A program made the translations under genes and the position numbers. Below the pieces are notes generated by a model. The model was not told the DNA's origin, made no database searches, and worked only from the letters and a program-made list of their open reading frames with translations. A stretch of DNA of 64,000 nt from an uncultured Pseudomonadales bacterium (GTDB taxonomy: Bacteria; Pseudomonadota; Gammaproteobacteria; Pseudomonadales; Azotimanducaceae), in the NCBI GenBank assembly GCA_949372755.1, contig CASIBO010000008.1, positions 33,162 through 97,161 on the forward strand, read 5' to 3'. Of this stretch, positions 34,031-64,000 are shown one piece after another. Each line of letters starts with the position of its first letter. Within the stretch, counting starts at the first letter, position 1.

Positions 34031-34059
34031 CGAGTCTGCAGGTCTTTCGGTTTACCGCC

Positions 34060-35004: not shown

Positions 35005-36359
35005 GCCGACGCCTGCTACCACTCCTGTTTTTCTTCACCACCCTCAGCGCGGTCGGTGATGACGCGGCACTCTTTACACTTTATAAAAATCGCGTGGCGC
35101 CGATCATTCAAGGTTCGTGTATTGGGTGTCATGTTAGCGGGGGCCGGGCCAGTTCAACCAGACTTGTTTATGCTTCTGGCTCGTCAACCTCGGTTCAGGA
35201 GGCAAACTTCGACCGGGTGCGGTCGTACATTGAAGGTAATATCAAAACGGGTTCGCAGTACACGTTTGTAAACAAAGGGCAGGGGCAGGGTCACGGTGGC
35301 GGTAACCGACTGTCTCGAGCGGAAGATGTCCAAGCGGTCACGGATTTTATCGACGCCATTGCGCTGTCGTTAAGCGACGGGGATGAGGATGGCGTCACCA
35401 ACGATCTGGATAACTGCCAAGACGTGGCCAATGCGGATCAAGCAGATCTCGACCAGGATGGCGAAGGCGATGCCTGTGACGCGGATATCGATGGGGACGC
35501 GGTCTCTAACGCGGATGAAACGGCGCAAGGCACATCGCCAGATGAGGCCGATTCCGATGGCGACGGGGTTTTAGATGGCGAGGACGCCTTGCCCTTGGAC
35601 GCAAGTGAAAGCAGCGATCGTGATGGCGATGGCACCGGAGACAATGCCGATGCTTTTCCGGATGATTCCGCCGAGACCCAGGACAGCGATAACGATGGTG
35701 TGGGCGATGTTCGTGATGCCTTTGATGAGGATCCCACTGAATTTGAAGATACGGATGGCGATGGGGTGGGCGATAATACGGATGTCTTCCCGGATGATCC
35801 CACTGAGTTCCAGGACAGCGATAATGATGGCGTCGGCGATGTTCGAGATGCTTTTGATAAGGACCCCTTTGAGTTTGAGGATACGGATGGCAATGGGGTT
35901 GGCGATGCGGCGGACCCCGATGATGACGGCGATGGGTACAGCGATGCCGAAGAACTTGCTGAGGGGACCGACCCCAAGAATCGTTTTTCTTGCAAATCAG
36001 GATGTTTCAGCTTTGACGTCGATGAAAGCCAAGCCGCGCAACCCTTGACCGATGGTCTATTGGTCATTCGTCACTTGTTCGGGTTCAGCGGCGATGCCCT
36101 GACGTCGGGCGCCATTGCGGGTTTGGCCGGCAGAGGGTCCTCAGAGCTGATTTCGGGCTATTTAACGGGCGCTGATGCGGAGCTGGACATTGATGGCGAT
36201 GGCAAGTCTGAACCGCTGACGGATGGTCTATTGCTGATCCGGTATTTGTTCGGGTTCTCGGGTGAGGCCCTGATTTCTGGCGCCATTGGTTCTGGCGCGG
36301 AGCGGGATACGGCGGAGGCCGTCGAGGCGTATATCAAGGCGCGTGTGCCTGGGCAGTAG
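35001..36359 (+). CDS. secreted CxxCH (PSCyt1-like) / thrombospondin type 3 repeat protein with C-terminal dockerin-like repeat pair
   Basis: Signal peptide, then VAPIIQGSCIGCHVSGG (CxxCH at 35118-35132). Many DxDxDGxGD repeats follow, then two LTDGLL(V/L)IR(H/Y)LFGFSG segments. ATGA overlap with apbE. Confidence 0.75.
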   Translation: MSRRLLPLLFFFTTLSAVGDDAALFTLYKNRVAPIIQGSCIGCHVSGGRASSTRLVYASGSSTSVQEANFDRVRSYIEGNIKTGSQYTFVNKGQGQGHGGGNRLSRAEDVQAVTDFIDAIALSLSDGDEDGVTNDLDNCQDVANADQADLDQDGEGDACDADIDGDAVSNADETAQGTSPDEADSDGDGVLDGEDALPLDASESSDRDGDGTGDNADAFPDDSAETQDSDNDGVGDVRDAFDEDPTEFEDTDGDGVGDNTDVFPDDPTEFQDSDNDGVGDVRDAFDKDPFEFEDTDGNGVGDAADPDDDGDGYSDAEELAEGTDPKNRFSCKSGCFSFDVDESQAAQPLTDGLLVIRHLFGFSGDALTSGAIAGLAGRGSSELISGYLTGADAELDIDGDGKSEPLTDGLLLIRYLFGFSGEALISGAIGSGAERDTAEAVEAYIKARVPGQ

Positions 36360-44055: not shown

Positions 44056-47000
44056 ATGATCCATTTTTTTATTCCAGCGCTTTTTATGGTGGCGAGTCTC
44101 TTGGCATCTGCAGATTCGCGACCGGGCAGAGCGATCATCGATTTCGAGCCAAACAATTCGATCGACGCGGCGGAATCGATTCAGCTTGGACGTGAGGTCG
44201 ACGGCAGCCTTGCGAGTATGTCTGACGTGGATGTCTACATGGTCACGATTGATAAAACCTCCAAGCTATCGCTAGCCTTTCGAAGTGAGCTTCGAGAAAG
44301 TAACGGCTGGAAGTACGAGTTGCTTAATGAAGAGGGCAGTGTCCTGGGTGCTAGTTTTTGTGATTTTACGGATTGCGAAAATGGCGAGACGCTGTCCGTC
44401 GGCGTTCAAAGTGGTACTTATTATTTGAAGGTGCTTCCAGAATCGGATTCATCAAATGAGAGCTTCCTGCCGGATGGCGCCTACTTTTTTACCCTCACGG
44501 CGGTTGATGAATTTAGTACGGTTGAGTTTGAGCCAAACAATAGTACTGAGGTCTCGCAGGCTGTTAATTTTAATAAGACTTACGAAGGTCAGCTCTCAAG
44601 TATGTCCGATGTCGACTTCTACACGTTCGCGATTGATAACACGGCAAAGCTAGAGATCGCCTTTCAAAGTGAGCTTCGAGAAAGTAACGGCTGGAAGTAC
44701 GAGTTGCTTAATGAAGAGGGCGGTGTCCTGAGTGCTAGTTTTTGTGATTTTACGGATTGCGAAAATGGCGAGACGTTGTCCGTCGGGGTTCAGAGCGGTA
44801 CGTATTATTTGAAAGTGCTGCCAGAATCGGATTCCTCAAGTGAAAGTTTCCTGCCGGATGGCGCCTACTTTTTTACCCTCACGGCGGTTGATGATTTTAG
44901 TACGGTTGAGTTTGAGCCAAACAATAGTACTGAGGTCTCGCAGGCTGTTAATTTTAATGAGACTTACGAAGGTCAACTCTCAAGTATGACCGATGTCGAC
45001 TTCTACACAGTCACTGTTGAGAAAACTAAAAAGCTTGAGATCACCTTTCAAAGTGAGCTTCGCGAAAGTAACGGCTGGAAGTACGAGTTGCTTAATGAAG
45101 AGGGCAGTGTCCTGGGTGCTAGTTTTTGTGATTTTACGGATTGCGAAAATGGCGAGACGCTGTCCGTCGGCGTTCAAAGTGGTACTTATTATTTGAAGGT
45201 GCTGCCAGAATCGGATTCATCAAATGAGAGCTTCCTGCCGGATGGCGCCTACTTTTTTACCCTCACGGCGGGTGATGATTTTAGCACGGTTGAGTTTGAG
45301 CCAAACAATAGTACTGAGGCCTCGCAGGCTGTTAATTTTAATAAGACTTACGAAGGTCAGCTCTCAAGCATGTCCGATGTCGACTTCTACACGTTCGCGA
45401 TTGATAACACGGCAAAGCTAGAGATCGCCTTTCAAAGTGAGCTTCGAGAAAGTAACGGCTGGAAGTACGAGTTGCTCACTGAGGAGGGCAGTGTTCTGGG
45501 CGCTAGTTTTTGTGATTTTACGGATTGCGAAAATGGCGAGACGCTGTCTGTCGGCGTTCAGAGTGGGACGTATTTTCTGAAAGTGCTTCCAGAATCGGAT
45601 TCATCAAGTGAAAGTTTCCTGCCAGATGGCGCCTACTATTTTCTTATTGAATTCGGAGACAAGGATGAAGACGGCATATTTGATGAAGATGATAATTGCC
45701 TAAAAACTGCCAATCCGGATCAGCTCGATACCGACACAGATGGTTTTGGGGACGCCTGTGATGACGATGATGACGATGATGGTACAGCCGATACGAATGA
45801 TGCGTTCCCCCTAAACGCGGATGAAACCGTGGACTCAGATGGTGACGGCATTGGCAATAACGCTGATGCTGATGACGATAACGACGGCGTTGAAGACGGT
45901 AATGACGCATTCCCCTTTGATTCGGCGGAAAACTCAGACGCAGACCTTGATGGCGTAGGCGATAACAGTGACGCGTTCCCGCAGGATGCGAATGAGTCTT
46001 TAGATTCTGATCAGGACGAGGTTGGCGACAATGCTGATAATTGCCCAGAGCTTGGCAACACAGATCAAATCGATACCGATGGCGATGCTGCAGGCGATGC
46101 CTGTGATGCAGATGATGACAATGACGGGGTTTCGGACGAGTTAGATTTTTACCCCCTCGATTCAAGTCGAACGAAATATGGCGGGCAGCGGGCGCTGATC
46201 ATTGCTGGCGGTGGCCCGTACGAAGGTAATTTTCTATGGACGGCAACGCAAAACATGGCCAACGTCGCTTACGACGCGCTGCGGACCCAGGGCTTGAGCG
46301 ATGACAATATTGAGTATCTATCCGAGGAAGTTCGGGCGAGGGTAGATGGCTTGCCAACAGTAGCGAATATTAAAAAATCGATCGAAAGTTTGGCGGACGC
46401 CGATGAAGAAAAGATTACAGATGTGCTGATCTATATGGTCGATCATGGCGATGACGGAGTCTTTAAGATCGACGAATCGACCTTTTTAGGGGCGAGTGAT
46501 CTCAAGGTTTGGTTGGATGATCTGCATGCTAAACACGATATACGATCGACCCTCATTTATGATGCCTGCCAATCTGGATCCTTTATTCCTCTGCTGGGTT
46601 CACAAGACGATACCAACCGGTTAGTCATTACTAGCAGCGCAGCGCTAGAAAATGCATGGTTTGCCAGTGATGGCTATTTATCTTTTTCTTACTACTTCTG
46701 GACTATTTTCAGGAGCGGCGGTGACTTCTCCGAGGCCAGTATCGCCGCGAAAAATGCAATGGGTTTCCAGTTCAGGCAGACCGCTAAGTTTGATGCTAAC
46801 GGGAATGGTGTTAGCGATGAAAAAACAGATAAATTACTGATTAAGGACTTTGCGTTTGGGCTGGGCGCCGTGCAAGCAAGTGAGTTCCCTGTTGTGGGTG
46901 CAATTGAAGTTCAACGCGAACTTAATGGCGAGCTGTCAGTGCCAATCACCGTGGCGTCAGTCGGCGGAGGAACTGCCGTTGAAAAGGTCCTGGTGATACT

Positions 47001-50000
47001 CACGACACCAGACAAACCCATTATAGCGCCGGATGAGCCCTTGGTTAATCTGATCGATACCGAGCTGACACAAAATGAAGACGGAAGCTGGGGTGGGGTA
47101 GTAGCCGGGTTCGAGGCGAAAGGCAGCTATGAATTAAGCGTGATCGCCGAGAGTAAGAGTGGACTGACCTCTTTCCCAACAGAAGAAAACACCAATTCTG
47201 TGACGGTGCAGCAAAATATTGGTAGAGATCCAATTGTGCAGTCAGACACGGATAGAGATGGTGTTGCCGATGCGACCGATCCTGATGACGATAATGATAA
47301 TGTGCTGGACGCTGATGATGCTTTCCCAACCGATGCGGCGGAGTCTAAGGATACGGACGGCGACGGTGTTGGAGATAATGCCGACCTGGATGATGATAAC
47401 GATGCGCTGAGCGATGCGGACGAATTGTTGCTAGGGACAGATTCACTGAATGCGGATTCTGACTCGGACGGATTCAGTGATGGTCTGGATGCGCTCCCGT
47501 TAGATGCAACAGAAAGTATTGACACAGATTCCGATGGTGTCGGGAACAACGCTGATCAAGATGATGATGGCGATGGACTTGACGACATTTCTGAAATCCA
47601 ATCAGGCCTAAATCCGCTGTTAACAGACTCAGACAACGATGGTGTCGATGATGGTATTGATGCGTTTCCCTTAGATGGCAGTGAGACTGTCGATTCAGAC
47701 CTGGATGGAATTGGTGATACCCAAGATGCGTTTCCAACAAACCCAGATGAAACGTTAGACCAGGACGGGGATGGTATTGGTGACAACGCGGATGTGTTCG
47801 ATGATGATCCCTTTGAAGCCTATGACACGGATAGTGATGGTCTTGGCAATAACGCAGATCCAGATGACGACAATGATGGATTCTCGGACGATGAAGAGAT
47901 AGCCGCTGGCACCGATCCACTCGGTGCGTCATCCTGCCCAGGCTGTTTTTCTTTCGACGTTGACAACGACGGTGAGGCCAAAGCGTTAACCGATGGCCTG
48001 CTGGTGATCCGACACCTCTTCGGCTTTAGCGATGAGGCGTTAACCGCTGGTGCCGTCGGTAGCAATGCGAGTCGTACAACGCCTGCAGATATTGCAGCGT
48101 ATCTTACAAACGCGGCGACTGAGCTCGATGTCGATGGCGATGATGAGGCGAAAGCCTTAACCGATGGTTTATTACTCATTCGCCAGCTGTTCGGTTTTAC
48201 AGGTAATGCCTTAACGGCAGGCGCCGTCGGTGAGACCGCAGAGCGCGCCACCGCGAGTGCAATTCAGGCGTACATTACGCAACGCTTGCCTGACTCAAAT
48301 GGTTCGGCCAGTGGCTCGGATGACGGCGTGGGCGCTGACACCGGCGATGCTGGCGGCTCAGATACGGCTGGGTCTGACACTGGTGAAGATACGGGCGGGA
48401 CTACCTCTGGCGGCAGTACCGATGGGGGCACCAGCGACGGCGATACTGATTCGGGCGGCGACACCGGCGGCACTGATGGTGGTTCAGCCGGCACAAAAAC
48501 GATTGAGATAGACGTGGTTTATGACCGAGTGCCTTATCGCGCGCCGGAGTGCACGGCCTCAGGTTGCAGCTATCGGGGGCTGGATTACGCCAACATCGTA
48601 CAAAAGCCTGTGCGGTTTGCTAAAGCTCAGGTTTTGGATGCTGATTCGAAGGCGATCGTCACCGACAATCTTCGAACGGACGCCGCAGGACGATTGTCAT
48701 TCTCGGTTGGAGATGATGACGCTTTTATCGTGCGGGTTTATGCTGAGAGCCCAGGGAATGGCTCCGCCAGCTGGGGACTACGGATCGTTGACAACAATGG
48801 TGCTGATCAGGAAGGCAGCTACCCGGTTTATGTTTTGGAATCCCAAGCCGTGGGCGCGAATGCCGTTGACGAGCCGTTAACGCTACGGGCAGCGTCAGGA
48901 TGGGGGCTCACAAAATATACCCAAACGCGATCGGCCGCGCCGTTTGCGATCCTGGATTCAATGGTTTCGGCGACCCTCTACGCGTTAAGCGGCCGCAGTA
49001 CACTGATTTTTGCACCGGTTGATGTCTATTGGAGCATTGCGAATTCCACAGATACGGTTGGAACCTCGTATTATTCTGGTGCTTATATCATGATCCTTGG
49101 CGATGCCGAGGTAGATACCGATGAATATGATGAATCGGTGATCGTTCATGAGTGGGGCCATTATTTTCAATCAATTTTATCGAAAGACGACAGCCTTGGT
49201 GGCAGCCACGGCGGTGGTGATCTGCTGGATATGCGGGTTGCCTTTAGCGAGGGTTGGGCCAACGCTTATTCGGGTCTTGCGACGGCGCGGGATGCCTATA
49301 TCGATACCTCTGGCAGTCAACAAGCGGGTGGGTTCGGCATCGCACTTGAAATTGAACTAACTGAAAGAGAGGGTGCAGTTAAAGGCTGGTATTCCGAAGA
49401 TAGCGCCCAGTATTTGGTCTATGACTTATTTGATGATGGGGCGTCCGATGACGATAATGTCGCGCTGCCAGTCTCTGTGATGATGTCGTCGCTTATCGAT
49501 TTTATGCCCCAGCAGGCTGCGGCAACATCAATATTCAGCTTCAGTGCTGGGGTAATCGATGCGCAACCGAACCAATCCAGTTTGATCATGGCCTTGTTGG
49601 ATCGCGAAAATATTGGCCGAGGCAGGGTGCAAATTGATTCCCTTGGCTCAGGGGAAACCAATTCGGCAGGCGAATACGCTGCGGTTGAGAATATTGAGGC
49701 GATGACATTGCCGGTTTATACCGTGCTTGATAGCAGTCTGATCTCAGCAGACATGTGCCAAGATGTCTTGCCGGCGTCTGCGCCACGAGTATTCGGTATC
49801 GATAATAAACTGGGGGCTTATCGCTTTGCTCAGTTTGAAATATCTCAGGCAGGCAACTATACCGTCCGACTCACTACGACAGCGAAACCCTTGGGCGCTG
49901 CTAGCGATCCTGATTTTGGCGTTTACAATGCACAGGGCTTGATCGGCCCTCAGCTTAACGAGCTAACGGGAGCCGTGGATCTAGAGTCCCACATCTTGCA

Positions 50001-50106
50001 GTTGGCGAAAGGTCAATATTGGGCTTGGGCACACGATTACAACAATTATCAGCGAGGCAGTAATTCCGGTCGGTATTGCCAGCGTTTGGAGGTCGTGCCG
50101 CAATGA
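44056..50106 (+). CDS. giant secreted multidomain protein: 4x PPC-like repeats, TSP3 repeats, clan-CD C13-like peptidase, TSP3 repeats, dockerin-like pair, Gly/Ser/Thr/Asp linker, HExxH metallopeptidase, C-terminal PPC-like domain
   Basis: Signal peptide MIHFFIPALFMVASLLASA. FEPNNS...SDVD.Y repeats. Clan-CD dyad VDHGDDG (His codon 46444-46446) and YDACQSGSF (Cys codon 46567-46569). HEWGH at 49147-49161 with a downstream EGWANAY. Confidence 0.85.
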   Translation: MIHFFIPALFMVASLLASADSRPGRAIIDFEPNNSIDAAESIQLGREVDGSLASMSDVDVYMVTIDKTSKLSLAFRSELRESNGWKYELLNEEGSVLGASFCDFTDCENGETLSVGVQSGTYYLKVLPESDSSNESFLPDGAYFFTLTAVDEFSTVEFEPNNSTEVSQAVNFNKTYEGQLSSMSDVDFYTFAIDNTAKLEIAFQSELRESNGWKYELLNEEGGVLSASFCDFTDCENGETLSVGVQSGTYYLKVLPESDSSSESFLPDGAYFFTLTAVDDFSTVEFEPNNSTEVSQAVNFNETYEGQLSSMTDVDFYTVTVEKTKKLEITFQSELRESNGWKYELLNEEGSVLGASFCDFTDCENGETLSVGVQSGTYYLKVLPESDSSNESFLPDGAYFFTLTAGDDFSTVEFEPNNSTEASQAVNFNKTYEGQLSSMSDVDFYTFAIDNTAKLEIAFQSELRESNGWKYELLTEEGSVLGASFCDFTDCENGETLSVGVQSGTYFLKVLPESDSSSESFLPDGAYYFLIEFGDKDEDGIFDEDDNCLKTANPDQLDTDTDGFGDACDDDDDDDGTADTNDAFPLNADETVDSDGDGIGNNADADDDNDGVEDGNDAFPFDSAENSDADLDGVGDNSDAFPQDANESLDSDQDEVGDNADNCPELGNTDQIDTDGDAAGDACDADDDNDGVSDELDFYPLDSSRTKYGGQRALIIAGGGPYEGNFLWTATQNMANVAYDALRTQGLSDDNIEYLSEEVRARVDGLPTVANIKKSIESLADADEEKITDVLIYMVDHGDDGVFKIDESTFLGASDLKVWLDDLHAKHDIRSTLIYDACQSGSFIPLLGSQDDTNRLVITSSAALENAWFASDGYLSFSYYFWTIFRSGGDFSEASIAAKNAMGFQFRQTAKFDANGNGVSDEKTDKLLIKDFAFGLGAVQASEFPVVGAIEVQRELNGELSVPITVASVGGGTAVEKVLVILTTPDKPIIAPDEPLVNLIDTELTQNEDGSWGGVVAGFEAKGSYELSVIAESKSGLTSFPTEENTNSVTVQQNIGRDPIVQSDTDRDGVADATDPDDDNDNVLDADDAFPTDAAESKDTDGDGVGDNADLDDDNDALSDADELLLGTDSLNADSDSDGFSDGLDALPLDATESIDTDSDGVGNNADQDDDGDGLDDISEIQSGLNPLLTDSDNDGVDDGIDAFPLDGSETVDSDLDGIGDTQDAFPTNPDETLDQDGDGIGDNADVFDDDPFEAYDTDSDGLGNNADPDDDNDGFSDDEEIAAGTDPLGASSCPGCFSFDVDNDGEAKALTDGLLVIRHLFGFSDEALTAGAVGSNASRTTPADIAAYLTNAATELDVDGDDEAKALTDGLLLIRQLFGFTGNALTAGAVGETAERATASAIQAYITQRLPDSNGSASGSDDGVGADTGDAGGSDTAGSDTGEDTGGTTSGGSTDGGTSDGDTDSGGDTGGTDGGSAGTKTIEIDVVYDRVPYRAPECTASGCSYRGLDYANIVQKPVRFAKAQVLDADSKAIVTDNLRTDAAGRLSFSVGDDDAFIVRVYAESPGNGSASWGLRIVDNNGADQEGSYPVYVLESQAVGANAVDEPLTLRAASGWGLTKYTQTRSAAPFAILDSMVSATLYALSGRSTLIFAPVDVYWSIANSTDTVGTSYYSGAYIMILGDAEVDTDEYDESVIVHEWGHYFQSILSKDDSLGGSHGGGDLLDMRVAFSEGWANAYSGLATARDAYIDTSGSQQAGGFGIALEIELTEREGAVKGWYSEDSAQYLVYDLFDDGASDDDNVALPVSVMMSSLIDFMPQQAAATSIFSFSAGVIDAQPNQSSLIMALLDRENIGRGRVQIDSLGSGETNSAGEYAAVENIEAMTLPVYTVLDSSLISADMCQDVLPASAPRVFGIDNKLGAYRFAQFEISQAGNYTVRLTTTAKPLGAASDPDFGVYNAQGLIGPQLNELTGAVDLESHILQLAKGQYWAWAHDYNNYQRGSNSGRYCQRLEVVPQ
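44143..45655 (+). repeat. four tandem 384-bp (128-aa) near-identical coding repeats
   Basis: The FEPNN start recurs at 44143, 44527, 44911 and 45295. Off-frame ORFs 44456-44653 and 45224-45421 are almost identical, which indicates a 768-bp higher-order periodicity. Confidence 0.9.
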
Positions 50107-50952: not shown

Positions 50953-53900
50953 GAGATGAAGAACCTGAAACATTCATTGTTGCTTTTAATGAAAGCGGCA
51001 TTAGCGAGCGTGGTGTTAATGGCCTCTGCTGCGGTTGCAGACAACCAGATTATTACGGTGTCCCCTGCAGAACCAGCGTTCGGAGAGAGTGATGAGTCGG
51101 TTACTTTTTCGGTGGTCTATGCAACCGACCCGGAAAATACGGGGGTTCCTGGCTTCGGGCTAAAGATGTACTTTAATAGTGCCGTTTTAGAAGGCAAGGC
51201 ACTCAATGTGAATCCTGATATCGGTGGTCAGCAGACGGGTCCTTCTGTTCAAGCCGATAGTGCGGACGGCGATAATGATGCAAATACCGATAAAGTCGTT
51301 GTTGTAGCCTGGATCGAAAATACCAAGCAAGAAGGTTTTGGTGATACGGTGAGTGTTCCTTGGCCGGAAGTTGAAGATTTTACCGGTGGTGTATCGATAA
51401 TCGATGTCACCTTTGGTCGAGCCGACACAACTTTTACAGGAAAGAGTCAGGTTAATTTTATACTCAGTACAGCGGCAGGGTTTGACGCCAAGGCTGATTC
51501 GTTTGATGTTATTTTCAAAGACGATGAAACTGCGCCCGTAGTCACACTGGGCGAGTCTAGCGTCACAATTGAAGCCGTTGGGCCGCTAACCTCGGAAGAT
51601 AACGCTACAGCCCTTGCCGATTTTATTAAAACCATAACGGTTGAAGATAACAAGGATACTCTGACCACTGAGAATCTAGACGCATTTGTCACCCAAGATG
51701 GCGCGTTGGTTGCAGCCCCCGAAGGCTTTGCACCAGGCACTTACGAAATCACATTTATTGCATCGGATAGTTCCGGCAATAAGTCAGAAGGTGTCGTGGT
51801 GACCCTGACGGTTGCTGATACGACCCAGCCGGTCCTAAGCGGTGTATCCAATGTCGCATTATCCGCCGCAGATAAGAATGGTGCTCCATCTGCTGGCGTA
51901 CTTGCCGCCGTCGCGCTTGATAGCGTTGATGGTGAAGTTGTGGTCGCTTATTCCGTTGGTGGGGCTGATGTGGGAGATAATTTCCCACTAGGCGAGACAA
52001 CCGTTACGGTAAAAGCAGCCGACTCAGCTGGCAACATGGCGGAAGGCACCTTAGTCGTTACCGTTAGTGATACCACCAGTCCAGTCATTGTTTCTGCTGC
52101 CGGGGTAGCCTTGGAAGCCGATGGCGAGCTGGGGTATGGTGGTAGTACAGCAAGTATTATTGCCGCAATCGGTGTGTCGGATAATGTTGATGATGCGCCG
52201 GCGGTCACGCTAGGCGCGTCTGTGCCGGAAGTCTTGCCGTTTGGGGTTACCCAAGTTGCTGTAGTGGTGACGGATGCCGCGGGTAACGCAACAGAGGGTA
52301 CTGTGCCCGTTACCGTTGCCGATACTACGAAACCAGAATTCTCGGGCGCTAACTTACTGGTGCTAACCGTTGATGCGGCTGATGAAGTGGTTGCTAGTGA
52401 TGATGCCCGGGTCACGACCTGGTTGGCCGGCGTCACCGCAACGGATATTGTCGATGGCGCAACGGATGTTACCAACAGCGCGTTACCCAGTACTTTTGCA
52501 GTGGGTGAAGCGGTTATTACCTTTACATCCTCCGATTCGCGAGGTAATGAAGCATCAGCCGAGGCCACCATACTCGTGACGGTCGGGCCAGCGGTCACGG
52601 TTGCGGACGCTATAACAGTAGTGTCGCTAGATGGCGCGGCTTTGCCAGCGTCTCAAACGCAAATTGCGGCGTTTATTGCTGCCGCTAGTGCAACGGATTT
52701 CTCGGGCGTGGTCTTGGATGTGACGAACGATGCTCCAGATACTTTCGCTATTGGCGACACCTTAGTGACCTTTAGCGCGGTTGATGCCGATGATCGACAA
52801 GGCCAGAGCAGCTCGACGGTCACGGTTGTCGCAGCATCTGCTGAAAACGACACCGATAATGATGGCATCGATGATCTGTTTGAAGTTGAAAATGGACTCG
52901 ACCCCAATGCAGACGATGCTGAGGCTGATGCCGATGGTGATGGCCGAAGCAATCTAGACGAGTACCTAGAAGGTACAGATCCTAATGTAGATGATGTGAA
53001 ACCGATTGTTACCGCACCGGCCGATGTGGCGACGGGTGCAACTGGCGCGCTCACGAAGGCTGATCTAGGCGAAGCAACAGCGAGCGATACCTTAGATGGC
53101 GATCTTACGCCCATTGCCGATAACCCTGGTCCTTATGCACCCGGTAGCTACACGGTCACATGGTCGGCGACGGATGCGGCTGGCAACGTGGGTATTGCGA
53201 CGCAATCCGTCGTGATATCGCCGCAGGCGTCGGTCACGCCAAAAGGTCGGGTAGCGGAAGGCGCAGACTTCCTGGTTGAGGTCACATTAAATGGGCCCGC
53301 GCCAGCGTATCCGGTTGAAATCCCTGTAACGCTTGGCGGCACAGCTGAGCTAGACAGTGATTACACCGTATCCGTATCGTCCATCGTGATCGAGTCGGGT
53401 CGAATCGGTATTATGACAATCTCGGTGCTGTCTGATGAAGTTGAAGAGGGTACAGAAAGCATTGAAGTGACCTTGGGTGCACCTGCTGCCAATGCAGTAT
53501 TGGGCTCAGCCTTAACAAGCCTGATTAGTATTATTGAAACGCAGGAGCCACCTGCTCTGAAGTTGTCCGTTAGTCAGGGCGATCAAAATGGTCGGAAGGT
53601 TGCAGCGGAAGGTGGGTCCGTTATGGTCACGCTCAGTATCAAGGACCCCAATGGCACGCATACAGTGGACTGGAGCGGATCAGACAACAACCTGGTCGCA
53701 ACCTCTGAAGACGGTGCGATGATGTTCGAATTTGATCCAGCCGCATTAGCAGAAGGTGGCTATGAAGTCGCAGCGATTGTCACAGATAGTGGCATTGCAG
53801 AGACAACCTTCGATATTGGCGTCTTGATTCGAGTCGCTGCAGAAGCGGTTGAAGCGGACTCGGATGGTGACGGGGTTCCAGATAGTAAGGATACGTCTGA

Positions 53901-54609
53901 AGAAACGAATGTTATCGCGGTCGACGCCGACGCCGGCACGGCCGCTGTAACGGCGGATGCGGGCGTGAAGCTTGTAATCGGTGATGCGGCTCAAGCGTCT
54001 GGCACATCCGGTATCGCGGTCTCGGAAGAGACTATCGCGGCCAGCGGAGCGGATGGTGGTGAAGCGCCAAGCAATGGTGATGACGAAGACTTCAACTACC
54101 CAGCTGGGGTCTACGACTTCCAAGTTCAAGATCTGCCGGTACCGGGTCAATCTGTTCGATTGAGCATTCCGGTCGCAGCAGGCATTCCGGCTGATGCTGT
54201 CATGCGGAAGTATACGGAAGCTGAAGGCTGGTTTGATTTCGTCATCGATGAAAACAATGGCGTTGCTTCGGCCCCTGGTGACGATGGTGCTTGCCCATCC
54301 GTCGGCTCTGAACTGTATGTTGATGGCTTAACGGAAGGCGACACCTGCCTGCAGCTCACCGTACAAGACGGTGGTCCAAACGATGCAGACGGCTCCGTGA
54401 ACGGTGAATACGATGATCCAAGCGGGATTGCTGAAGCCGCGCCAGTTAAAGTTGTTATCGTTCCTGACACCTCGAGTCGAAAGAAAGTCGGCGGGGGTTG
54501 TAGTGTCTCTGAAGGCGGCCCGGGTGATTTTGGTCTTGTGTTCTTAGCGTTGCTCGGCGCGCTCGGTTTGTTCCGAAAGCGCCTTGCTGCGAGCCTTCTG
54601 AATCGTTGA
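50953..54609 (+). CDS. large cell-surface protein: cohesin-like N-domain, HYR/Ig-like repeats, TSP3/EF-hand-like segment, Calx-beta, choice-of-anchor-like domain, C-terminal Cys-containing TM sorting signal
   Basis: Signal peptide MKNLKHSLLLLMKAALASVVLMASAAVA. Repeated DTT.PV...G...V...A.D..GN units. The Calx-beta-like segment is AEGADFLVEV...LDSDYTV...EGTESIEVTL. The C-terminus reads DGGPNDADGSVNGEYDDPSG, then GGGCSVSEGG, a hydrophobic helix, and RKR. Confidence 0.8.
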   Translation, partial: EMKNLKHSLLLLMKAALASVVLMASAAVADNQIITVSPAEPAFGESDESVTFSVVYATDPENTGVPGFGLKMYFNSAVLEGKALNVNPDIGGQQTGPSVQADSADGDNDANTDKVVVVAWIENTKQEGFGDTVSVPWPEVEDFTGGVSIIDVTFGRADTTFTGKSQVNFILSTAAGFDAKADSFDVIFKDDETAPVVTLGESSVTIEAVGPLTSEDNATALADFIKTITVEDNKDTLTTENLDAFVTQDGALVAAPEGFAPGTYEITFIASDSSGNKSEGVVVTLTVADTTQPVLSGVSNVALSAADKNGAPSAGVLAAVALDSVDGEVVVAYSVGGADVGDNFPLGETTVTVKAADSAGNMAEGTLVVTVSDTTSPVIVSAAGVALEADGELGYGGSTASIIAAIGVSDNVDDAPAVTLGASVPEVLPFGVTQVAVVVTDAAGNATEGTVPVTVADTTKPEFSGANLLVLTVDAADEVVASDDARVTTWLAGVTATDIVDGATDVTNSALPSTFAVGEAVITFTSSDSRGNEASAEATILVTVGPAVTVADAITVVSLDGAALPASQTQIAAFIAAASATDFSGVVLDVTNDAPDTFAIGDTLVTFSAVDADDRQGQSSSTVTVVAASAENDTDNDGIDDLFEVENGLDPNADDAEADADGDGRSNLDEYLEGTDPNVDDVKPIVTAPADVATGATGALTKADLGEATASDTLDGDLTPIADNPGPYAPGSYTVTWSATDAAGNVGIATQSVVISPQASVTPKGRVAEGADFLVEVTLNGPAPAYPVEIPVTLGGTAELDSDYTVSVSSIVIESGRIGIMTISVLSDEVEEGTESIEVTLGAPAANAVLGSALTSLISIIETQEPPALKLSVSQGDQNGRKVAAEGGSVMVTLSIKDPNGTHTVDWSGSDNNLVATSEDGAMMFEFDPAALAEGGYEVAAIVTDSGIAETTFDIGVLIRVAAEAVEADSDGDGVPDSKDTSEETNVIAVDADAGTAAVTADAGVKLVIGDAAQASGTSGIAVSEETIAASGADGGEAPSNGDDEDFNYPAGVYDFQVQDLPVPGQSVRLSIPVAAGIPADAVMRKYTEAEGWFDFVIDENNGVASAPGDDGACPSVGSELYVDGLTEGDTCLQLTVQDGGPNDADGSVNGEYDDPSGIAEAAPVKVVIVPDTSSRKKVGGGCSVSEGGPGDFGLVFLALLGALGLFRKRLAASLLNR

Positions 54610-54613
54610 TTTG

Positions 54614-55063
54614 ATGACGCGTTCGCGTAATTTACACGAGTTGATTTGGGGCGCCTTGATAGGCGCCCTTTTTCTTTGGGGTGGCGCTTCCTGGTATTGG
54701 GCTCTGACGCCTAGCTTTAGTTGGGTCATGTTGCAGTGGCCAATGTTTTTTGCAGTGTGTGTGGCCAGCCCTGTTCTAGAGGAATATGTGTTTAGGGGGC
54801 TTCTTTATGAAGCGGTTGATGCACGCTGGCCTCGGGTCTGGCCGGCGGGTGCACGCTTATCGATCAGCTTCGCAAATGCCATGACGACCTGGCTGTTTGT
54901 GATAGCGCACATGATCGCGCGGGATCCAATCGCGGGCGCTTTAGTGCTTCTACCCTCGATCTATTTAGGGTTGTTACGGGCGCGTTATGGTGGAATAGGC
55001 GTCTGCATGCTCGTCCATGCGGCCTGGAACATTGGGTGGTTCAGTTTGTTTCCGCCGGCGTAG
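54614..55063 (+). CDS. CPBP-family (CAAX-like) glutamic-type intramembrane protease, small form
   Basis: All three CPBP motifs are present: EEYVFRG, FVIAHM and HAAWN. There are four predicted TM helices. The gene starts 5 nt after the stop of the surface-protein gene. Confidence 0.8.
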   Translation: MTRSRNLHELIWGALIGALFLWGGASWYWALTPSFSWVMLQWPMFFAVCVASPVLEEYVFRGLLYEAVDARWPRVWPAGARLSISFANAMTTWLFVIAHMIARDPIAGALVLLPSIYLGLLRARYGGIGVCMLVHAAWNIGWFSLFPPA

Positions 55064-55155: not shown

Positions 55156-55455
55156 ATGCCATTTTTTATGAGACTCGGTCTGCTCTGGTTGCTGAGCGCC
55201 TTTTGCTCAGCGTCGTTCGCCAGTATCCCGGCTGGGCGAATCAATGCGATCAATGCGCAGTTAGCGGCAGGGCAGTATCAAGCAGCAGAAAAAGCAACTT
55301 TAGTTCTACTCGAATCCCAGCAACTCTCAACCGATGATGTGAACACCTTAGAGGCTCTGGCGAGTGGTTTCACGGCTGCAGGACTTCGTGACCAAGCCGG
55401 GACGCTGTTATCCAAAGGCTGCAGAACTGTTAGGTGCACCGCAAACCAGCAGTGA
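55156..55455 (+). CDS. signal peptide plus helical-repeat fragment, probably the displaced N-terminus of the CHAT protein
   Basis: MPFFMRLGLLWLLSAFCSASFA signal peptide. The ORF overlaps the next ORF by 92 nt in a different frame, and the repeat-like sequence continues across the junction. Confidence 0.45.
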   Translation: MPFFMRLGLLWLLSAFCSASFASIPAGRINAINAQLAAGQYQAAEKATLVLLESQQLSTDDVNTLEALASGFTAAGLRDQAGTLLSKGCRTVRCTANQQ

Positions 55456-57379: not shown

Positions 57380-57391
57380 GAGGGGACACGC

Positions 57392-61592: not shown

Positions 61593-64000
61593 GTGAACGC
61601 TATCAACAAGCCGACTAAGCCGATTGGGATTAAAAGCCAACTAAAGGTCTTATTGGGATTAACGGTATTAATTGGCAGTTTTTTTTCCTCAGCTGTCTCC
61701 GCGGCCGATGCTTTCGAGCCAAACGATGCGCTGAGTCAAGCCACGCTATTGGTGGTTGGTAACCCTAATCCGCAGCCACATACTTTAGATCCTGACAAGG
61801 ACGTTGACTGGTTCAGGTTTAATGCACAGTTTTTCGAAGTCTATGACATCAGGACACTTGGGCTCGGCGCAACAGTTGACCTTGCTATTGAGGTTTTCGA
61901 TGAGAATGGTGATCGCGTTGGTGAAGTTGAAGACTCCGGTTTTAAAGGCGAGGCAGAGGCGTTTTCTTTTCGTGCACCGTCAACTGGTACATTTTACCTC
62001 AAGGTATATGACTATTATTGTATTAATGGTGGTGATGGCTGCGCCGCGCCAAGAGGCGATGAAGCAGCCTATAGCATTCTGATCTTTATACCTATCGGCG
62101 CAGTGGGTGGCGCTGATTTGGCGATCGTTCATGAATCTGCGACGGAGGGTGTTGTAGGGACCCCATTCTCACTTGGTATTGAAGTGACAAATAATGGCGG
62201 CCAAGAAGAAGACGACACAGCGGACAACCTCTTAATCCTTACCTATTCTGAGCCGCAATTGCCAAAGCCTGCAAGCCTGCCTGAAGGATGCGAGGGCGAG
62301 GTAGGGCTCGTGATGTGTACTAAAGACCAGTTGGTCGCCGAGGATCGTTTTGGTTACACCCTCAATTTTGAATTTTCGGATGTTGGCAAAGTTCGGTTCA
62401 CCAGCACCGTGGCCGCCTTCGAAAATCCAGATTACACCCTGCAGCAAGCGGATGATCAGTGGTCAAATAATGTCGTTGACGAGGTCGTGACTATTAGCGA
62501 GGGCTCGGGCGGCGGCATTACGGATAGCGATAATGATGGTGAACCCGATAGCACTGATAACTGTCCCAATACCGCTAATGCAAACCAAACAGACACCGAT
62601 AACGATGACGAGGGCGATGCCTGCGATAAGGACGATGATGGGGATGACATTGCGGATAGCGCCGACAATTGTCCCCTGATCAAAAACACAAACCAAACCA
62701 ATACGGATGATGACAGCAAGGGTGATGCCTGCGACACCGACGATGATGACGACGCGTTGCTCGACGGCGCGGACAATTGTCCCCTGATTGCTAACGCTGG
62801 CCAAGCTAACAACGATGATGATGCGAACGGCGACGCGTGTGATGCCGACGATGATAACGACGCAATACTGGATGAGGTGGACAATTGCACCTTGATTGCG
62901 AATGCGGAACAGGCGGATGCGGATCTTGATGGAGATGGGAATGCGTGTGACACAGACATTGATGGCGACCAGGTGCTCAACAATGTCGACAATTGCCCGC
63001 TGATTGAAAACCAAAATCAAGCCGATGAGGACCTTGATGGGGATGGCGATGCGTGTGATGCCGATATTGACGATGACCAGGTGTTCAACGACGCCGACAA
63101 TTGCCCCTTTGACCCGAATACCGATCAAGCTGATTTAGATAAAGACAATACGGGCGACGCGTGTGATGCCGATATCGACGGCGATGCTGTGCTCAATGGG
63201 GATGACAACTGCAAGCTGATCGTGAATGCGGATCAAGCCGATGAAGATGAGGATGGGCTCGGGGATGCGTGTGATGAGAATAGCGCCCTCGACAGTGACG
63301 AGGACGGAATAAACGACGATCTGGACAATTGCCCGAATGATGCCAATGCCGATCAAGCGGATGCGGATAATGATGGTGTGGGCGATATTTGTGATACCAG
63401 TCCAAATGATTCCGATGATGACGGCATTGATGATGATGTAGACAACTGCCCATTAGTTGATAACAGCGATCAGTTTGATTTTGATGATGATGCGGTGGGG
63501 GATGCCTGTGATGCTGATGCCGATGGTGACTCGATTGGTGATGCGGAGGATTTGTTTCCCTTTGACGCGAGAGGGGGGCTGGACGCGGACAATGATGGTA
63601 TGGCCGATGAATGGGAGGCGCTCAACGGTTTAGATAGTGTGGATGCCGCTGATGCGAGCTCGGATGCGGACGGTGATGGGTTAACAGCGCTCGAGGAGTT
63701 TGAGGGCGAAACCGACCCCAACCAGTCGGATCTGCTGGCCCAGAGTCTTACGTTTGAGGCGCCGAAATTCTTGGTGATCGGTCAAGCCGCAACGATCAAG
63801 CTTTTTTACGTCGCGGCAGATGGTCAAAGCACCACGGGACTTGCATTTAGAGTGCATTACGATAAAGCGGTCCTAAACGGCTTGATTGGTGATTATTTCT
63901 CAGTGTTTCAAGAGGGTGGGATCCGCCTTGGCGGGGTGGCATTCGACGATATCGAAGATCTCGACAATGACCCGCTTACCGACACCTATGAGGTGTTCGC
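61593..64000 (+). CDS. secreted PPC-domain / canonical TSP3-repeat / cohesin-like protein (3' end outside the window)
   Basis: This ORF is not in the supplied track because it has no stop in the window, so I translated it by eye. It has a signal-like VLLGLTVLIGSFFSSAVSAADA, a PPC motif FEPND...DVDWFRF, about 10 repeats of DNCP...N..Q.D.D.DG.GDACD, and then a FRVHYDKAVL cohesin-like segment. The start codon is uncertain: GTG at 61593, with an in-frame TGA at 61581. Confidence 0.75.
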   Translation, partial: MNAINKPTKPIGIKSQLKVLLGLTVLIGSFFSSAVSAADAFEPNDALSQATLLVVGNPNPQPHTLDPDKDVDWFRFNAQFFEVYDIRTLGLGATVDLAIEVFDENGDRVGEVEDSGFKGEAEAFSFRAPSTGTFYLKVYDYYCINGGDGCAAPRGDEAAYSILIFIPIGAVGGADLAIVHESATEGVVGTPFSLGIEVTNNGGQEEDDTADNLLILTYSEPQLPKPASLPEGCEGEVGLVMCTKDQLVAEDRFGYTLNFEFSDVGKVRFTSTVAAFENPDYTLQQADDQWSNNVVDEVVTISEGSGGGITDSDNDGEPDSTDNCPNTANANQTDTDNDDEGDACDKDDDGDDIADSADNCPLIKNTNQTNTDDDSKGDACDTDDDDDALLDGADNCPLIANAGQANNDDDANGDACDADDDNDAILDEVDNCTLIANAEQADADLDGDGNACDTDIDGDQVLNNVDNCPLIENQNQADEDLDGDGDACDADIDDDQVFNDADNCPFDPNTDQADLDKDNTGDACDADIDGDAVLNGDDNCKLIVNADQADEDEDGLGDACDENSALDSDEDGINDDLDNCPNDANADQADADNDGVGDICDTSPNDSDDDGIDDDVDNCPLVDNSDQFDFDDDAVGDACDADADGDSIGDAEDLFPFDARGGLDADNDGMADEWEALNGLDSVDAADASSDADGDGLTALEEFEGETDPNQSDLLAQSLTFEAPKFLVIGQAATIKLFYVAADGQSTTGLAFRVHYDKAVLNGLIGDYFSVFQEGGIRLGGVAFDDIEDLDNDPLTDTYEVF

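What the first reader, a model, noticed from the sequence alone, without database searches (positions are those of the whole stretch)
47929..48290. Dockerin-like paired repeat module shared by two proteins 12 kb apart
The giant protein and the CxxCH/TSP3 protein (at 36000-36356) both end a TSP3 array with the same module of about 115 aa. It begins EGTDP....SC..GCFSFDVD. Two segments of the form D.D.DG.....LTDGLL(V/L)IR(H/Q/Y)LFGF.G.AL(T/I).GA follow, separated by about 35 residues.

Each segment is a Ca-loop followed by a helix, duplicated, which is how a dockerin is organised. The loop appears one residue longer than in classical type I dockerins. The module could tether both proteins to a common partner.
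Basis: partly seen in the sequence, partly recalled or inferred. Interest (0 to 1): 0.65.

Follow-up and report, generated by a model that had tools for sequence, protein, structure and literature searches.

The report
Dockerin-like calcium module with cohesin-like partners
Two secreted proteins of a marine bacterium share a 115-residue, duplicated calcium-loop/helix module that distantly resembles the dockerin plugs of cellulosomes, and cohesin-shaped domains encoded next to it are its likely sockets, though binding is untested.

Summary
Window 47929-48291 (internal in the giant protein) and 35988-36350 (C-terminus of the CxxCH/TSP3 protein) encode the same module, with 60% identity over 126 aa (E 4e-50).

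- **Anatomy:** each module is two 57-aa units. A unit has a 13-residue D-x-D-x-(D/N)-G…T-D loop, a helix (GLLxIRxLFGF) and a roughly 30-aa helical extension. The loop is one residue longer than a dockerin loop.
- **Family:** the module is absent from Pfam and NCBIfam. A profile finds at least 4,400 cluster representatives. It is usually C-terminal, on secreted TSP3, Ig, LRR, protease and glycosidase proteins, with at least 6-8 loci per marine Pseudomonadales genome.
- **Dockerin similarity:** this is consistent but sub-threshold. Foldseek finds no PDB match for a confident model.
- **Cohesin-like partner:** It heads a surface protein sorted by a JDVT-CTERM tail and the MrtJ protease. Elsewhere this domain family is fused directly to the module or encoded in adjacent genes, alongside true Pfam cohesins.

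Best reading (about 0.5): a divergent dockerin-like docking module that tethers secreted proteins to cohesin-like receptors. This is a new variant of a known kind, and binding is untested.

The parts
47929..48291 (+). Module copy A (internal in the giant protein). It has a Cys pair (SSCPGCF), then unit A1 (47950-48120) and unit A2 (48121-48291). Each unit is a 13-residue Ca-type loop, a helix and a helical extension.
   Evidence: Translation. 60% identity to copy B, E 4e-50. Unit coordinates and shuffle test. AF2 model pLDDT 90.5 with six helices.
35988..36350 (+). Module copy B, at the C-terminus of the CxxCH/TSP3 protein. Unit B1 is 36009-36179 and its first loop is degenerate (DVDESQAAQPLTD). 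Unit B2 is 36180-36350.
   Evidence: All 17 complete orthologues recovered from metagenomes end in the same module.
47863..47922 (+). Bacterial TSP3 repeat directly upstream of copy A. The equivalent repeat upstream of copy B is at 35919-35981.
   Evidence: Pfam TSP3_bac at aa 1288-1307 of the giant ORF and aa 307-327 of ORF 35001.
44056..50106 (+). Giant secreted protein (2016 aa as called in public assemblies). Order of parts: signal peptide, four near-identical repeats of about 117 aa, TSP3 arrays, Peptidase_C13 domain, TSP3 array, module A, G/S/D/T linker, HEWGH region.
35001..36359 (+). 452-aa secreted protein. Order of parts: signal peptide, CxxCH motif (CIGCH), TSP3 array, module B.
51037..51519 (+). 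Cohesin-like beta domain (c1). It is the N-terminal domain of the surface protein and the candidate receptor for the module.
   Evidence: AF2 pLDDT 77.9, all-beta. Foldseek: about 40 of the 46 matches at E <= 1e-3 are cohesins, including 9 of the top 10 (best E 6.7e-7, probability 1.0, TM 0.55-0.63). Three of 14 family members hit Pfam Cohesin, best E 5.8e-6.
50956..54609 (+). 1217-aa surface protein. Order of parts: signal peptide, cohesin-like domain, HYR/Ig-like stalk, choice-of-anchor U domain, JDVT-CTERM-like tail (54490-54582: GGGCS…hydrophobic helix…RKR).
54614..55063 (+). MrtJ, the CPBP/Rce1-type intramembrane protease of the JDVT-CTERM sorting system. It starts 4 nt after the surface-protein gene ends.
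   Evidence: NCBIfam NF033192 at 81.5 bits (cutoff 75). Pfam Rce1-like.
63726..64000 (+). Second cohesin-like domain (c2), cut by the window end. It lies in the PPC + TSP3 protein that starts at 61593. In the source contig this protein is 922 aa and ends with the cohesin-like domain followed directly by one 57-aa module unit.

Best explanation
The region encodes a Ca2+-binding, all-helical docking module built from two 57-residue units.

Each unit has three parts:
- a dockerin/EF-hand-type loop that is one residue longer than usual (D1-x-D3-x-D/N5-G…T12-D13);
- an amphipathic helix (GLLxIRxLFGF);
- a helical extension of about 30 residues with an invariant Arg.

The module is a portable tag placed mostly at the C-terminus of Sec-exported enzymes and adhesins. 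Proposed mechanism:
1. After export and Ca2+ loading, the module plugs into a divergent cohesin-fold domain.
2. In this locus that domain sits at the distal tip of an Ig-like stalk protein.
3. The stalk protein is held on the cell surface by a JDVT-CTERM tail processed by the adjacent MrtJ protease.
4. The giant C13/HEWGH protease and the CxxCH/TSP3 protein are thereby tethered to the cell surface, or to each other.

Shown here: the sequence anatomy, the size of the family, the cohesin fold of the neighbouring domain, and the genomic association of the two. Inferred: Ca2+ binding, the module-cohesin contact, and surface display.
For: 1. **F-hand anatomy.** D1, D3 and G14 are invariant and D13 is 99% conserved. 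Position 5 is D/N in 90% and R19 is 98% conserved, over 109 units. AF2 places each helix start at loop position 10.
2. **Dockerin and EF-hand similarity.** These are the only Pfam families hit repeatedly. hhalign to the CelS and CelD dockerins (verified against PDB 2MTE and 1CLC) aligns both segments colinearly (E 0.0012).
3. **Dockerin-like deployment.** The profile finds 6,324 representatives (4,409 at E <= 1e-10). The module is at the extreme C-terminus in 121 of 146, internal in 19 and N-terminal in 6. Carriers are varied: TSP3, Ig, cadherin, LRR, peptidases C13/M12/M4, GH81. There are at least 6-8 loci per genome assembled from a metagenome (MAG).
4. **Cohesin fold of the neighbouring domain**.
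5. **Domain fusions.** The cohesin-like domain directly precedes the module in one polypeptide in L052, L064, L086, L045 and the window's own 922-aa protein. In L015 the two share a polypeptide about 155 residues apart. The L052, L064 and L086 proteins also carry a Pfam Cohesin domain above threshold in L052/L064 (36-45 bits against 24.1), and adjacent genes encode further cohesin-like proteins.
6. **Anchoring of the cohesin-like protein.** It has a JDVT-CTERM-like tail and an adjacent MrtJ. Myxosortase-type systems attach proteins to the cell surface (PMC11980579; bioRxiv 10.1101/2023.06.07.544157).
7. **Precedent for single units.** Functional single-repeat dockerins are known (PMC12270676).
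Against: - The window copies score only about 13 bits on Dockerin_1 (cutoff 22.9).
- hhalign probabilities are low (4-19%).
- Foldseek finds no significant PDB match for the pLDDT-90 model. Dockerins appear at E 5-8 with TM <= 0.42.
- A single unit matches only the first F-hand of the dockerin model.
- The unit count varies (1, 2, 3, 10), unlike classical dockerins.
- The cohesin-like family found here is far rarer than the module: 8 against 719 hits with the same tool. It occurs in only 6 of 79 module-selected loci, so it cannot be the receptor for most modules.
- Where the two are fused there is no linker. The beta domain could therefore be an X-module-like support rather than a receptor.
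- No binding or Ca2+ data exist.
Confidence: 0.5

Rival explanations
1. The module is a Ca2+-dependent interaction domain whose ligand is not the cohesin-like domain. The ligand could be another copy of the module (self-association into networks), or a cell-envelope or polysaccharide component. Where the cohesin-like domain is fused directly upstream, it would act as a structural support, like the X-module of type II/III dockerins.
For: - The fusions have no linker between the beta domain and the module.
- Arrays of 3-10 units exist, and some proteins carry modules at both ends.
- The detected cohesin-like family is about 100 times rarer than the module.
- Most module loci have no cohesin-like gene within 6 kb.
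Against: - The cohesin-like domain also occurs without any module in the same protein: at the tip of the JDVT-anchored protein, and as stand-alone secreted proteins of 176-205 aa next to module genes. That fits a receptor better than a support.
- True Pfam cohesins occur in the same proteins.
Confidence: 0.22
2. The module is only a Ca2+-stabilised structural cap or folding nucleus that terminates TSP3 repeat arrays, with no specific partner.
For: - In both window proteins, and in 34 of 59 sampled carriers, a TSP3_bac repeat sits immediately upstream. The family consensus reads …DDDNDGFSDxxExxDGTDPLxxxSCxxGCF….
- A conserved Cys pair bridges the junction.
Against: - 25 of 59 carriers have no TSP3 hit.
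- Some modules follow a signal peptide directly (P0115, P0117). Others follow a cohesin-like domain.
- Arrays of five tandem modules occur without intervening TSP3 (P0121).
Confidence: 0.15
3. The module is a C-terminal secretion or sorting signal recognised by an export or sorting machine.
For: 121 of 146 representatives carry it within 10 residues of the C-terminus.
Against: - It is internal in the giant protein of this window, N-terminal in 6 representatives and internal in 19.
- It has no transmembrane segment or basic tail. It is a 115-aa folded helical domain.
- The carriers have Sec signal peptides.
- No sortase-like gene is consistently adjacent. MrtJ sits next to the cohesin-like protein, which has its own JDVT-like tail.
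Confidence: 0.05

Closest known systems
Type I dockerin (Pfam PF00404), e.g. the C. thermocellum CelS and CelD dockerins (PDB 2MTE/1DAQ, 1CLC)
   Same: - Duplicated Ca-loop plus helix (F-hand) segments with the D-x-D/N-x-D-G…D pattern, followed by LLxxxRYLxG.
- Mostly C-terminal, on diverse secreted enzymes.
- Several carriers per genome.
- Cohesin-fold domains encoded alongside.
   Different: - The loop is 13 residues, not 12.
- Each segment carries an extra helical extension of about 33 residues, so the module is about 115 aa rather than 60-70 aa.
- Six helices are predicted, not three.
- Units occur singly or in arrays of 3-10.
- The window copies score below the Pfam threshold, and Foldseek gives no significant structural match.
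- The host is an aerobic marine Gram-negative bacterium, and the carriers are proteases and adhesins rather than cellulases.
Non-cellulosomal cohesin- and dockerin-like modules (survey by Peer et al. 2009, cited in PMC3821032; Saccharophagus degradans has two dockerin-like and six cohesin-like ORFs, PMC2386152)
   Same: Cohesin-like and dockerin-like modules occur in non-cellulolytic or Gram-negative organisms, often one or a few per protein, with unknown partners. TSP3-rich secreted proteins of marine Gammaproteobacteria are among the carriers.
   Different: Those modules were found with standard dockerin and cohesin profiles. The present family escapes Pfam and NCBIfam and has a doubled unit length. 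No paper in the searched library describes it.
Single-repeat (group 2) dockerins of Ruminococcus flavefaciens (PMC12270676)
   Same: They show that one Ca-loop/helix unit can be a functional cohesin ligand. This parallels the single 57-aa unit that ends the 922-aa protein.
   Different: Those are truncated classical dockerins of Firmicutes. Here the single unit keeps the long helical extension and sits directly after a cohesin-like domain.
EF-hand (Pfam PF00036/PF13202/PF13405)
   Same: A D-x-D-x-D/N-G loop with an acidic residue in the first turn of the exiting helix. In a tandem, the last helix of one unit followed by the next loop and helix gives a helix-loop-helix.
   Different: The loop is 13 residues. 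Only sub-threshold hits were found (7/32, best E 0.006). The context is extracellular, and the LTDGLLxIRxLFGF signature is not an EF-hand feature.
JDVT-CTERM/MrtJ and MYXO-CTERM/myxosortase surface sorting (bioRxiv 10.1101/2023.06.07.544157; PMC11980579)
   Same: The cohesin-like protein has the tripartite Cys motif, hydrophobic helix and Arg/Lys tail. The MrtJ gene is directly adjacent, as in 16 of 17 cases reported for JDVT-CTERM.
   Different: This concerns the candidate receptor protein, not the module itself. The tail scores just under the JDVT-CTERM cutoff (26.5 against 27 bits) and has DF rather than the near-invariant DP.

Membership tests
Dockerin type I (Pfam PF00404) | Score at or above the Dockerin_1 gathering threshold (22.9 bits) | tested here: not met
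   The window copies score 12.8-13.0 bits (E 0.12-0.14). Among relatives 11/25 and 8/32 give sub-threshold hits (best E 5.6e-5 and 5.4e-4).
Dockerin type I (Pfam PF00404) | Two tandem F-hand segments (Ca-binding loop followed by a helix) in one module | tested here: met
   There are two segments per module, with D1, D3 and G14 invariant and D13 99% conserved. hhalign aligns both colinearly to the CelS and CelD dockerins. In the AF2 model each helix starts at loop position 10.
Dockerin type I (Pfam PF00404) | 12-residue loop, segments of about 22 residues joined by a short linker, total 60-70 aa | tested here: not met
   The loop is 13 residues (one-residue gap). Units are 57 aa and the module about 115 aa. 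Unit number varies from 1 to 10.
Dockerin type I (Pfam PF00404) | Three-helix dockerin fold | tested here: inconclusive
   The AF2 model (pLDDT 90.5) has six helices. Foldseek against the PDB gives no match at E < 1. Dockerins 6kgf and 6kge appear at E 5-8 with target-normalised TM 0.36-0.42.
Dockerin type I (Pfam PF00404) | Ca2+-dependent high-affinity binding to a cohesin | not testable with these tools
   This needs ITC, pull-down or a multimer prediction. Only single-chain prediction was available.
Dockerin type I (Pfam PF00404) | Co-occurrence with cohesin-bearing proteins in the same genome or locus | tested here: met
   Cohesin-fold domains lie at 51037-51519 and 63726 onward. Fusions and neighbouring genes occur in L001, L008, L015, L045, L052, L064 and L086, with Pfam Cohesin above threshold in L052 and L064 and on record for L086.
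EF-hand (Pfam PF00036 and relatives) | Match to EF-hand profiles; 12-residue loop flanked by two helices | tested here: inconclusive
   EF-hand_1 hits 7/32 members (best E 0.0061), with EF-hand_5 and EF-hand_6 at E about 0.004, all sub-threshold. The loop is one residue longer. The first loop of each module has no entering helix.
Cohesin (Pfam PF00963), for the neighbouring domain 51037-51519 | Match to the Cohesin profile | tested here: not met
   The window domain has no hit at E <= 10. Three of 14 members of its family do hit Cohesin (best E 5.8e-6). hhalign to validated cohesins is weak (E 0.0075, probability 5%).
Cohesin (Pfam PF00963), for the neighbouring domain 51037-51519 | Nine-stranded beta jelly-roll cohesin fold | tested here: met
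   The AF2 model is all-beta (pLDDT 77.9, pTM 0.73). Foldseek gives 46 matches at E <= 1e-3, of which about 40 are cohesins, including 9 of the top 10. The best is 2vn5 at E 6.7e-7, with TM 0.55-0.63.
JDVT-CTERM / MrtJ sorting system, for the cohesin-like protein | MrtJ-family CPBP protease encoded next to a protein with a Cys motif, a transmembrane helix and a basic tail | tested here: met
   NF033192 MrtJ scores 81.5 bits (cutoff 75). The tail scores 26.5 bits on JDVT-CTERM (cutoff 27) and 22.2 on MYXO-CTERM (cutoff 20). The two genes are 4 nt apart.
C-terminal sorting or secretion tags (PEP-CTERM, GlyGly-CTERM, MYXO/JDVT-CTERM, T9SS CTD), for the module | Obligatory C-terminal position. For the -CTERM tags: a signature motif, a transmembrane helix and a basic cluster | tested here: not met
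   The module is internal in the giant protein, and N-terminal or internal in 25 of 146 representatives. It has no hydrophobic helix or basic tail. NCBIfam gives no hit.

The most novel reading that the evidence does not exclude
Abundant marine Pseudomonadales (the HTCC2089/Azotimanducaceae, K189A and SAR92 groups), and some Desulfobacterota and other Pseudomonadota, may run a Gram-negative counterpart of the cohesin-dockerin system. It would be built from a previously uncatalogued dockerin class with 57-residue units that work singly, in pairs or in arrays. Its receptors would be divergent cohesins displayed on the outer surface by myxosortase-type (MrtJ) anchoring. The system would assemble giant proteases, adhesins and redox proteins into a cell-surface complex that has nothing to do with cellulose.
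Probability: 0.35. Interest if true: 0.75.

Novelty: new variant of a known kind. Interest (0 to 1): 0.6.

Why it matters
Cohesin-dockerin pairing is the textbook way in which Gram-positive anaerobes build extracellular multi-enzyme machines. It is also a widely used protein-engineering tool. Stray cohesin-like and dockerin-like modules outside cellulosomes have been listed for years, mostly without partners.

This locus offers three things:
- a very large module family (thousands of sequence clusters) that current domain libraries miss;
- a concrete, testable receptor encoded about 2.7 kb downstream;
- a plausible anchoring route through JDVT-CTERM and MrtJ.

If binding is confirmed, it would explain how abundant marine heterotrophs keep giant proteases and adhesins on their surface. 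It would add a new, longer dockerin architecture with a variable unit number. It would also supply orthogonal Ca-dependent binding pairs for synthetic scaffolds. If binding fails, the family is still worth a Pfam/NCBIfam entry as an extracellular Ca-loop repeat.

Tried and rejected
- **PDB sequence searches.** Searches with the module and with its profile found no dockerin. The only hit was the phage 186 CI repressor (E 0.0024, over a linker-like stretch), which I regard as chance.
- **NCBIfam on the module.** Nothing was found.
- **Foldseek of the module model against the PDB.** Nothing was significant. The top hits (DCN1 PONY domain and others) have TM about 0.2.
- **One 57-aa unit as a whole dockerin with a degenerate second loop.** Rejected. 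A single unit matches Dockerin_1 only over model positions 3-23.
- **PDB sequence search with the cohesin-like profile.** Nothing was found.
- **Reverse test by scanning metagenomes with the cohesin-like alignment.** It was replaced by looking up P0270, whose neighbour carries the module.
- **Walking beyond the window.** Several exact-product look-ups failed. The look-up of the 1217-aa protein succeeded.
- **Swap of a JDVT-CTERM tail for the module.** I tested whether homologues of the CxxCH/TSP3 protein in other taxa carry a JDVT-CTERM tail in place of the module. The metagenome scan found only close orthologues (72-99% identity), and all 17 complete ones end in the module. The idea remains untested.
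- **Recent duplication or gene conversion between the two copies.** Not supported. The script's blastn comparison of the two copies listed no alignment.
Full report
**1. The observation**

The full ORFs are 44002/44056-50106 (the giant protein) and 35001-36359 (CxxCH + TSP3, 452 aa).

The two modules share 75/126 identities (60%, BLASTP E 4e-50). tblastn finds no further copy in the window. Each module follows a Pfam TSP3_bac repeat. It opens with a Cys pair (SC-x1-2-GCF) and contains two 57-aa units: A1 47950-48120, A2 48121-48291, B1 36009-36179 and B2 36180-36350. Units are 47-63% identical to one another. For A1 against A2 (35/57), none of 20,000 shuffles reaches the observed identity.

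One correction is needed. In the giant protein the module is internal (aa about 1310-1430 of 2034). A G/S/D/T-rich linker and a HEWGH-containing region follow it.

**2. Anatomy of a unit**

I tabulated 109 units from the family.
- D1, D3 and G14 are invariant, and D13 is 99% conserved.
- Position 5 is N or D in 90% of units.
- G6 is present in 74%, L11 in 88%, and T/S12 in 93%.
- R19 is conserved in 98%, within GLLxIRxLFGF.

Copy B's first loop (DVDESQAAQPLTD) is degenerate at positions 5 and 6.

An AlphaFold2 model of copy A, built with 53 sequences, is confident (pLDDT 90.5, pTM 0.83). It has six helices: 29-40, 45-49, 62-71, 86-97, 102-106 and 119-127. The long helix after each loop begins at loop position 10, as in EF-hands and dockerin F-hands. 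The last helix of unit 1, loop 2 and the next helix together form a helix-loop-helix.

**3. The family**

Pfam and NCBIfam have no model that covers the module. A word-indexed search found 719 relatives, named only as hypothetical proteins of marine Pseudomonadales, Azotimanducaceae and Gammaproteobacteria genomes assembled from metagenomes (MAGs). A profile search of 1.84 billion cluster representatives found 6,324 at E <= 1e-3, 4,409 at E <= 1e-10 and 948 at E <= 1e-30.

Among 146 listed representatives, the module is within 10 residues of the C-terminus in 121, internal in 19 and N-terminal in 6. Some proteins have modules at both ends. Others have three units, or five tandem modules (P0121).

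Carriers are heterogeneous. Pfam domains found on them include TSP3 (34/59), Ig-like, cadherin-like, LRR, RCC1, FG-GAP, Calx-beta, peptidases C13/M12/M4 and GH81.

In species-representative genomes the module occurs at least 6-8 times per MAG (LRMED-315, SI034_bin123, UWMA-0291, DEBay_Spr30G08_9, S1_Bin_MAXBIN_076). Stray hits occur in Syntrophaceae, a betaproteobacterium, a Rhodospirillaceae MAG and a cyanobacterial bin.

The window matches NCBI assembly GCA_943788205.1, contig CALSPJ010000006.1, with small differences.

**4. Is it a dockerin?**

*Sequence.*
- The window copies score 12.8-13.0 bits on Dockerin_1, against a cutoff of 22.9.
- Dockerin_1 is still the family matched by most members: 11/25 (best E 5.6e-5) and 8/32 diverse members (best 5.4e-4). 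EF-hand_1 follows at 7/32, with EF-hand_5 and EF-hand_6 behind it.
- I confirmed that my CelS and CelD dockerin sequences are those of PDB 2MTE/1DAQ and 1CLC.
- hhalign of the family against them aligns one segment with a one-residue gap in the dockerin loop (E 0.01).
- With the diverse alignment, both segments align colinearly with an insertion of about 26 residues (55 columns, E 0.0012, probability 19%).
- A single unit matches Dockerin_1 only over model positions 3-23. A unit is therefore one F-hand plus an extension, not a whole dockerin.

*Structure.* Foldseek against the PDB finds nothing at E < 1. Dockerins 6kgf and 6kge appear at ranks 7, 15 and 20 (E 5-8, TM <= 0.42).

*Verdict.* The module has dockerin/EF-type Ca loops and a dockerin-like duplication and deployment. 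It is not a member of PF00404 as defined. Its fold has no significant match among solved PDB structures in the Foldseek search.

**5. The candidate partner**

It has no Pfam or PDB sequence hit.

An AF2 model built with 8 sequences is all-beta (pLDDT 77.9, pTM 0.73). Foldseek returns 46 matches at E <= 1e-3. About 40 of them are cohesins, including 9 of the top 10 (2vn5 E 6.7e-7, 4ums, 1g1k, 6kgf, 1aoh, 1ohz…; TM 0.55-0.63). Three of 14 members of its family hit Pfam Cohesin (best E 5.8e-6), and Cohesin is the only family hit more than once.

The second candidate (63741 onward) belongs to the same family through intermediate sequences (full-length E 2.4e-32).

**6. Association of the two domains**

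In the 79 loci fetched because they encode the module, the cohesin-like HMM finds 10 further domains in six loci.
- **Same polypeptide, directly adjacent.** The cohesin-like domain sits immediately N-terminal to the module in L045 (Gammaproteobacteria; TSP3 + cohesin-like + module), L052 (Syntrophaceae) and L064 (Pseudomonadota).
- **Same polypeptide, separated.** In L015 the two domains are about 155 residues apart.
- **True cohesins alongside.** The 806-aa proteins of L052 and L064 also carry a Pfam Cohesin domain above threshold at their N-terminus (36.3 and 44.9 bits against 24.1).
- **Neighbouring genes.** The two genes downstream of those proteins encode further cohesin-like proteins.
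- **Reverse test.** I started from a stand-alone cohesin-like protein (P0270) and recovered the same three-gene cassette in a JGI metagenome (L086): Pfam Cohesin + cohesin-like + module, then a small cohesin-like protein, then cohesin-like + CLIPPER repeats.
- **Beyond the window.** In the source contig the protein that starts at 61593 is 922 aa. It ends with its cohesin-like domain followed directly by a single unit, SLDIDGNGKAEALTDGLLVIRYLFGFRGESLTAGAVASDAQRRAPEDIEAFISTLIP*.

The locus therefore holds 2.5 modules and two cohesin-like domains. Functional single-repeat dockerins are known in R. flavefaciens (PMC12270676).

**7. Anchoring context**

ORF 50956-54609 continues with HYR/Ig-like repeats and a choice-of-anchor U domain. 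Its tail reads GGGCSVSEGGPGDFGLVFLALLGALGLFRKR, which scores 26.5 bits on JDVT-CTERM (cutoff 27) and 22.2 on MYXO-CTERM (cutoff 20). The next gene, 4 nt downstream, is MrtJ (81.5 bits, cutoff 75).

Haft's analysis links JDVT-CTERM proteins to an adjacent MrtJ in 16 of 17 cases (bioRxiv 10.1101/2023.06.07.544157). Myxosortase has been shown to sort MYXO-CTERM proteins to the cell surface (PMC11980579). The cohesin-like domain is therefore plausibly displayed at the tip of a surface-anchored stalk, about 2.7 kb downstream of module A. Only a lipoprotein gene (50103-50771) and a 43-codon ORF lie between the two genes.

**8. Most likely mechanism and rivals**

*Best reading (about 0.5).* This is a divergent dockerin-like, Ca2+-dependent docking module that tethers Sec-exported proteins to cohesin-fold receptors.

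*Steps shown:*
- the anatomy of the unit;
- the size and deployment of the family;
- the cohesin fold of the neighbouring domain;
- the fusions and adjacency;
- the sorting signal and its protease.

*Steps inferred:*
- Ca2+ binding;
- the physical contact between module and cohesin-like domain;
- surface display.

*Rivals:*
- The ligand is something else, or the module itself, and the fused beta domain is an X-module-like support (0.22).
- The module is a structural cap of TSP3 arrays (0.15).
- The module is a C-terminal sorting signal (0.05). Internal and N-terminal copies, and the lack of any membrane segment, contradict this.

*Main weaknesses of the best reading:*
- The dockerin similarity is sub-threshold.
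- The module has no structural match.
- The detected cohesin-like family is far rarer than the module (8 against 719 hits with the same tool; 6 of 79 loci). It cannot serve most modules unless other cohesin types do.

**9. Novelty**

Non-cellulosomal cohesin-like and dockerin-like modules are known. Examples are the survey by Peer et al. 2009, cited in PMC3821032, and the two dockerin-like and six cohesin-like ORFs of S. degradans (PMC2386152). Four literature searches found no description of this 57-aa-unit family, nor of a cohesin-like protein anchored by JDVT-CTERM.

I rate it a new variant of a known kind. It is of moderate to good interest because it is abundant, uncatalogued and directly testable.

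Noticed in passing
window 50103-50771 (+): A 222-aa ORF overlaps the giant gene's stop codon by 4 nt. It starts with a lipoprotein signal (MKNLLMMLSVLALLGC) and has no Pfam or NCBIfam hit. It sits between the module-bearing giant protein and the cohesin-like surface protein, and may belong to the same system.
   Followed up: partly
window 54490-54582 and 54614-55063 (+): A JDVT-CTERM-like sorting tail (single Cys, hydrophobic helix, RKR) lies on the cohesin-like protein. The adjacent gene encodes an MrtJ intramembrane protease above the NCBIfam cutoff. The tail has DF where JDVT-CTERM has a near-invariant DP, and scores 0.5 bit under the cutoff.
   Followed up: yes
window 31982-36359 (+): The CxxCH/TSP3/module protein follows a TlpA-like redoxin, DUF4266, DUF3570 and ApbE. 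Haft's preprint reports that some JDVT-CTERM proteins lie in a TlpA-DUF4266-DUF3570 neighbourhood, so the module may here replace a JDVT-CTERM anchor. Only close orthologues could be fetched, and all of them end in the module.
   Followed up: partly
window about 44120-45600 (+), aa about 40-520 of the giant protein: There are four nearly identical tandem repeats of about 117 aa (EFEPNNS…ELRESNGWKYELLNEEG…GTYYLKVLPESDSS). One public assembly splits the giant gene into two genes (772 and 1115 aa; L084), possibly an assembly problem at these repeats.
   Followed up: no
window about 48700-50103 (+), C-terminal third of the giant protein: The region after the module and its G/S/D/T-rich linker contains an HEWGH zinc-protease-type motif but has no Pfam hit. 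With the Peptidase_C13 domain (aa 807-887), the protein may carry two protease activities.
   Followed up: no
window 55364-61358 (+): A CHAT-domain protease, a ShlB/TpsB outer-membrane transporter and a TPS-domain (two-partner secretion) protein lie between the two cohesin-like proteins. The window differs from the public assembly by a frame change upstream of the CHAT gene (740 aa there, 671 aa here).
   Followed up: partly
L085 20638-23406 and 23545 onward (window about 61593-64361 and beyond): The 922-aa PPC + TSP3 + cohesin-like protein ends in a single 57-aa module unit. The next gene encodes an LRR/TSP3 giant of 2852-4486 aa whose C-terminus could not be read.
   Followed up: partly
L052 3949-12350, L064 3940-12340, L086 7599-17561: A three-gene cassette is conserved in a Syntrophaceae MAG, a Pseudomonadota MAG and a JGI metagenome. 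Gene 1 encodes Pfam Cohesin + cohesin-like + module. Gene 2 encodes a small secreted cohesin-like protein. Gene 3 encodes cohesin-like + CLIPPER/DUF11 repeats (about 1800-2300 aa).
   Followed up: partly
cohesin-like family, alignment A4 columns about 74-86: The cohesin-like domains share a conserved acidic motif, D-[TS]-x-D-x-D-x-D-x-x-T-D, followed by AW. It looks like a further Ca2+-binding site and is not a feature I know from classical cohesins.
   Followed up: no
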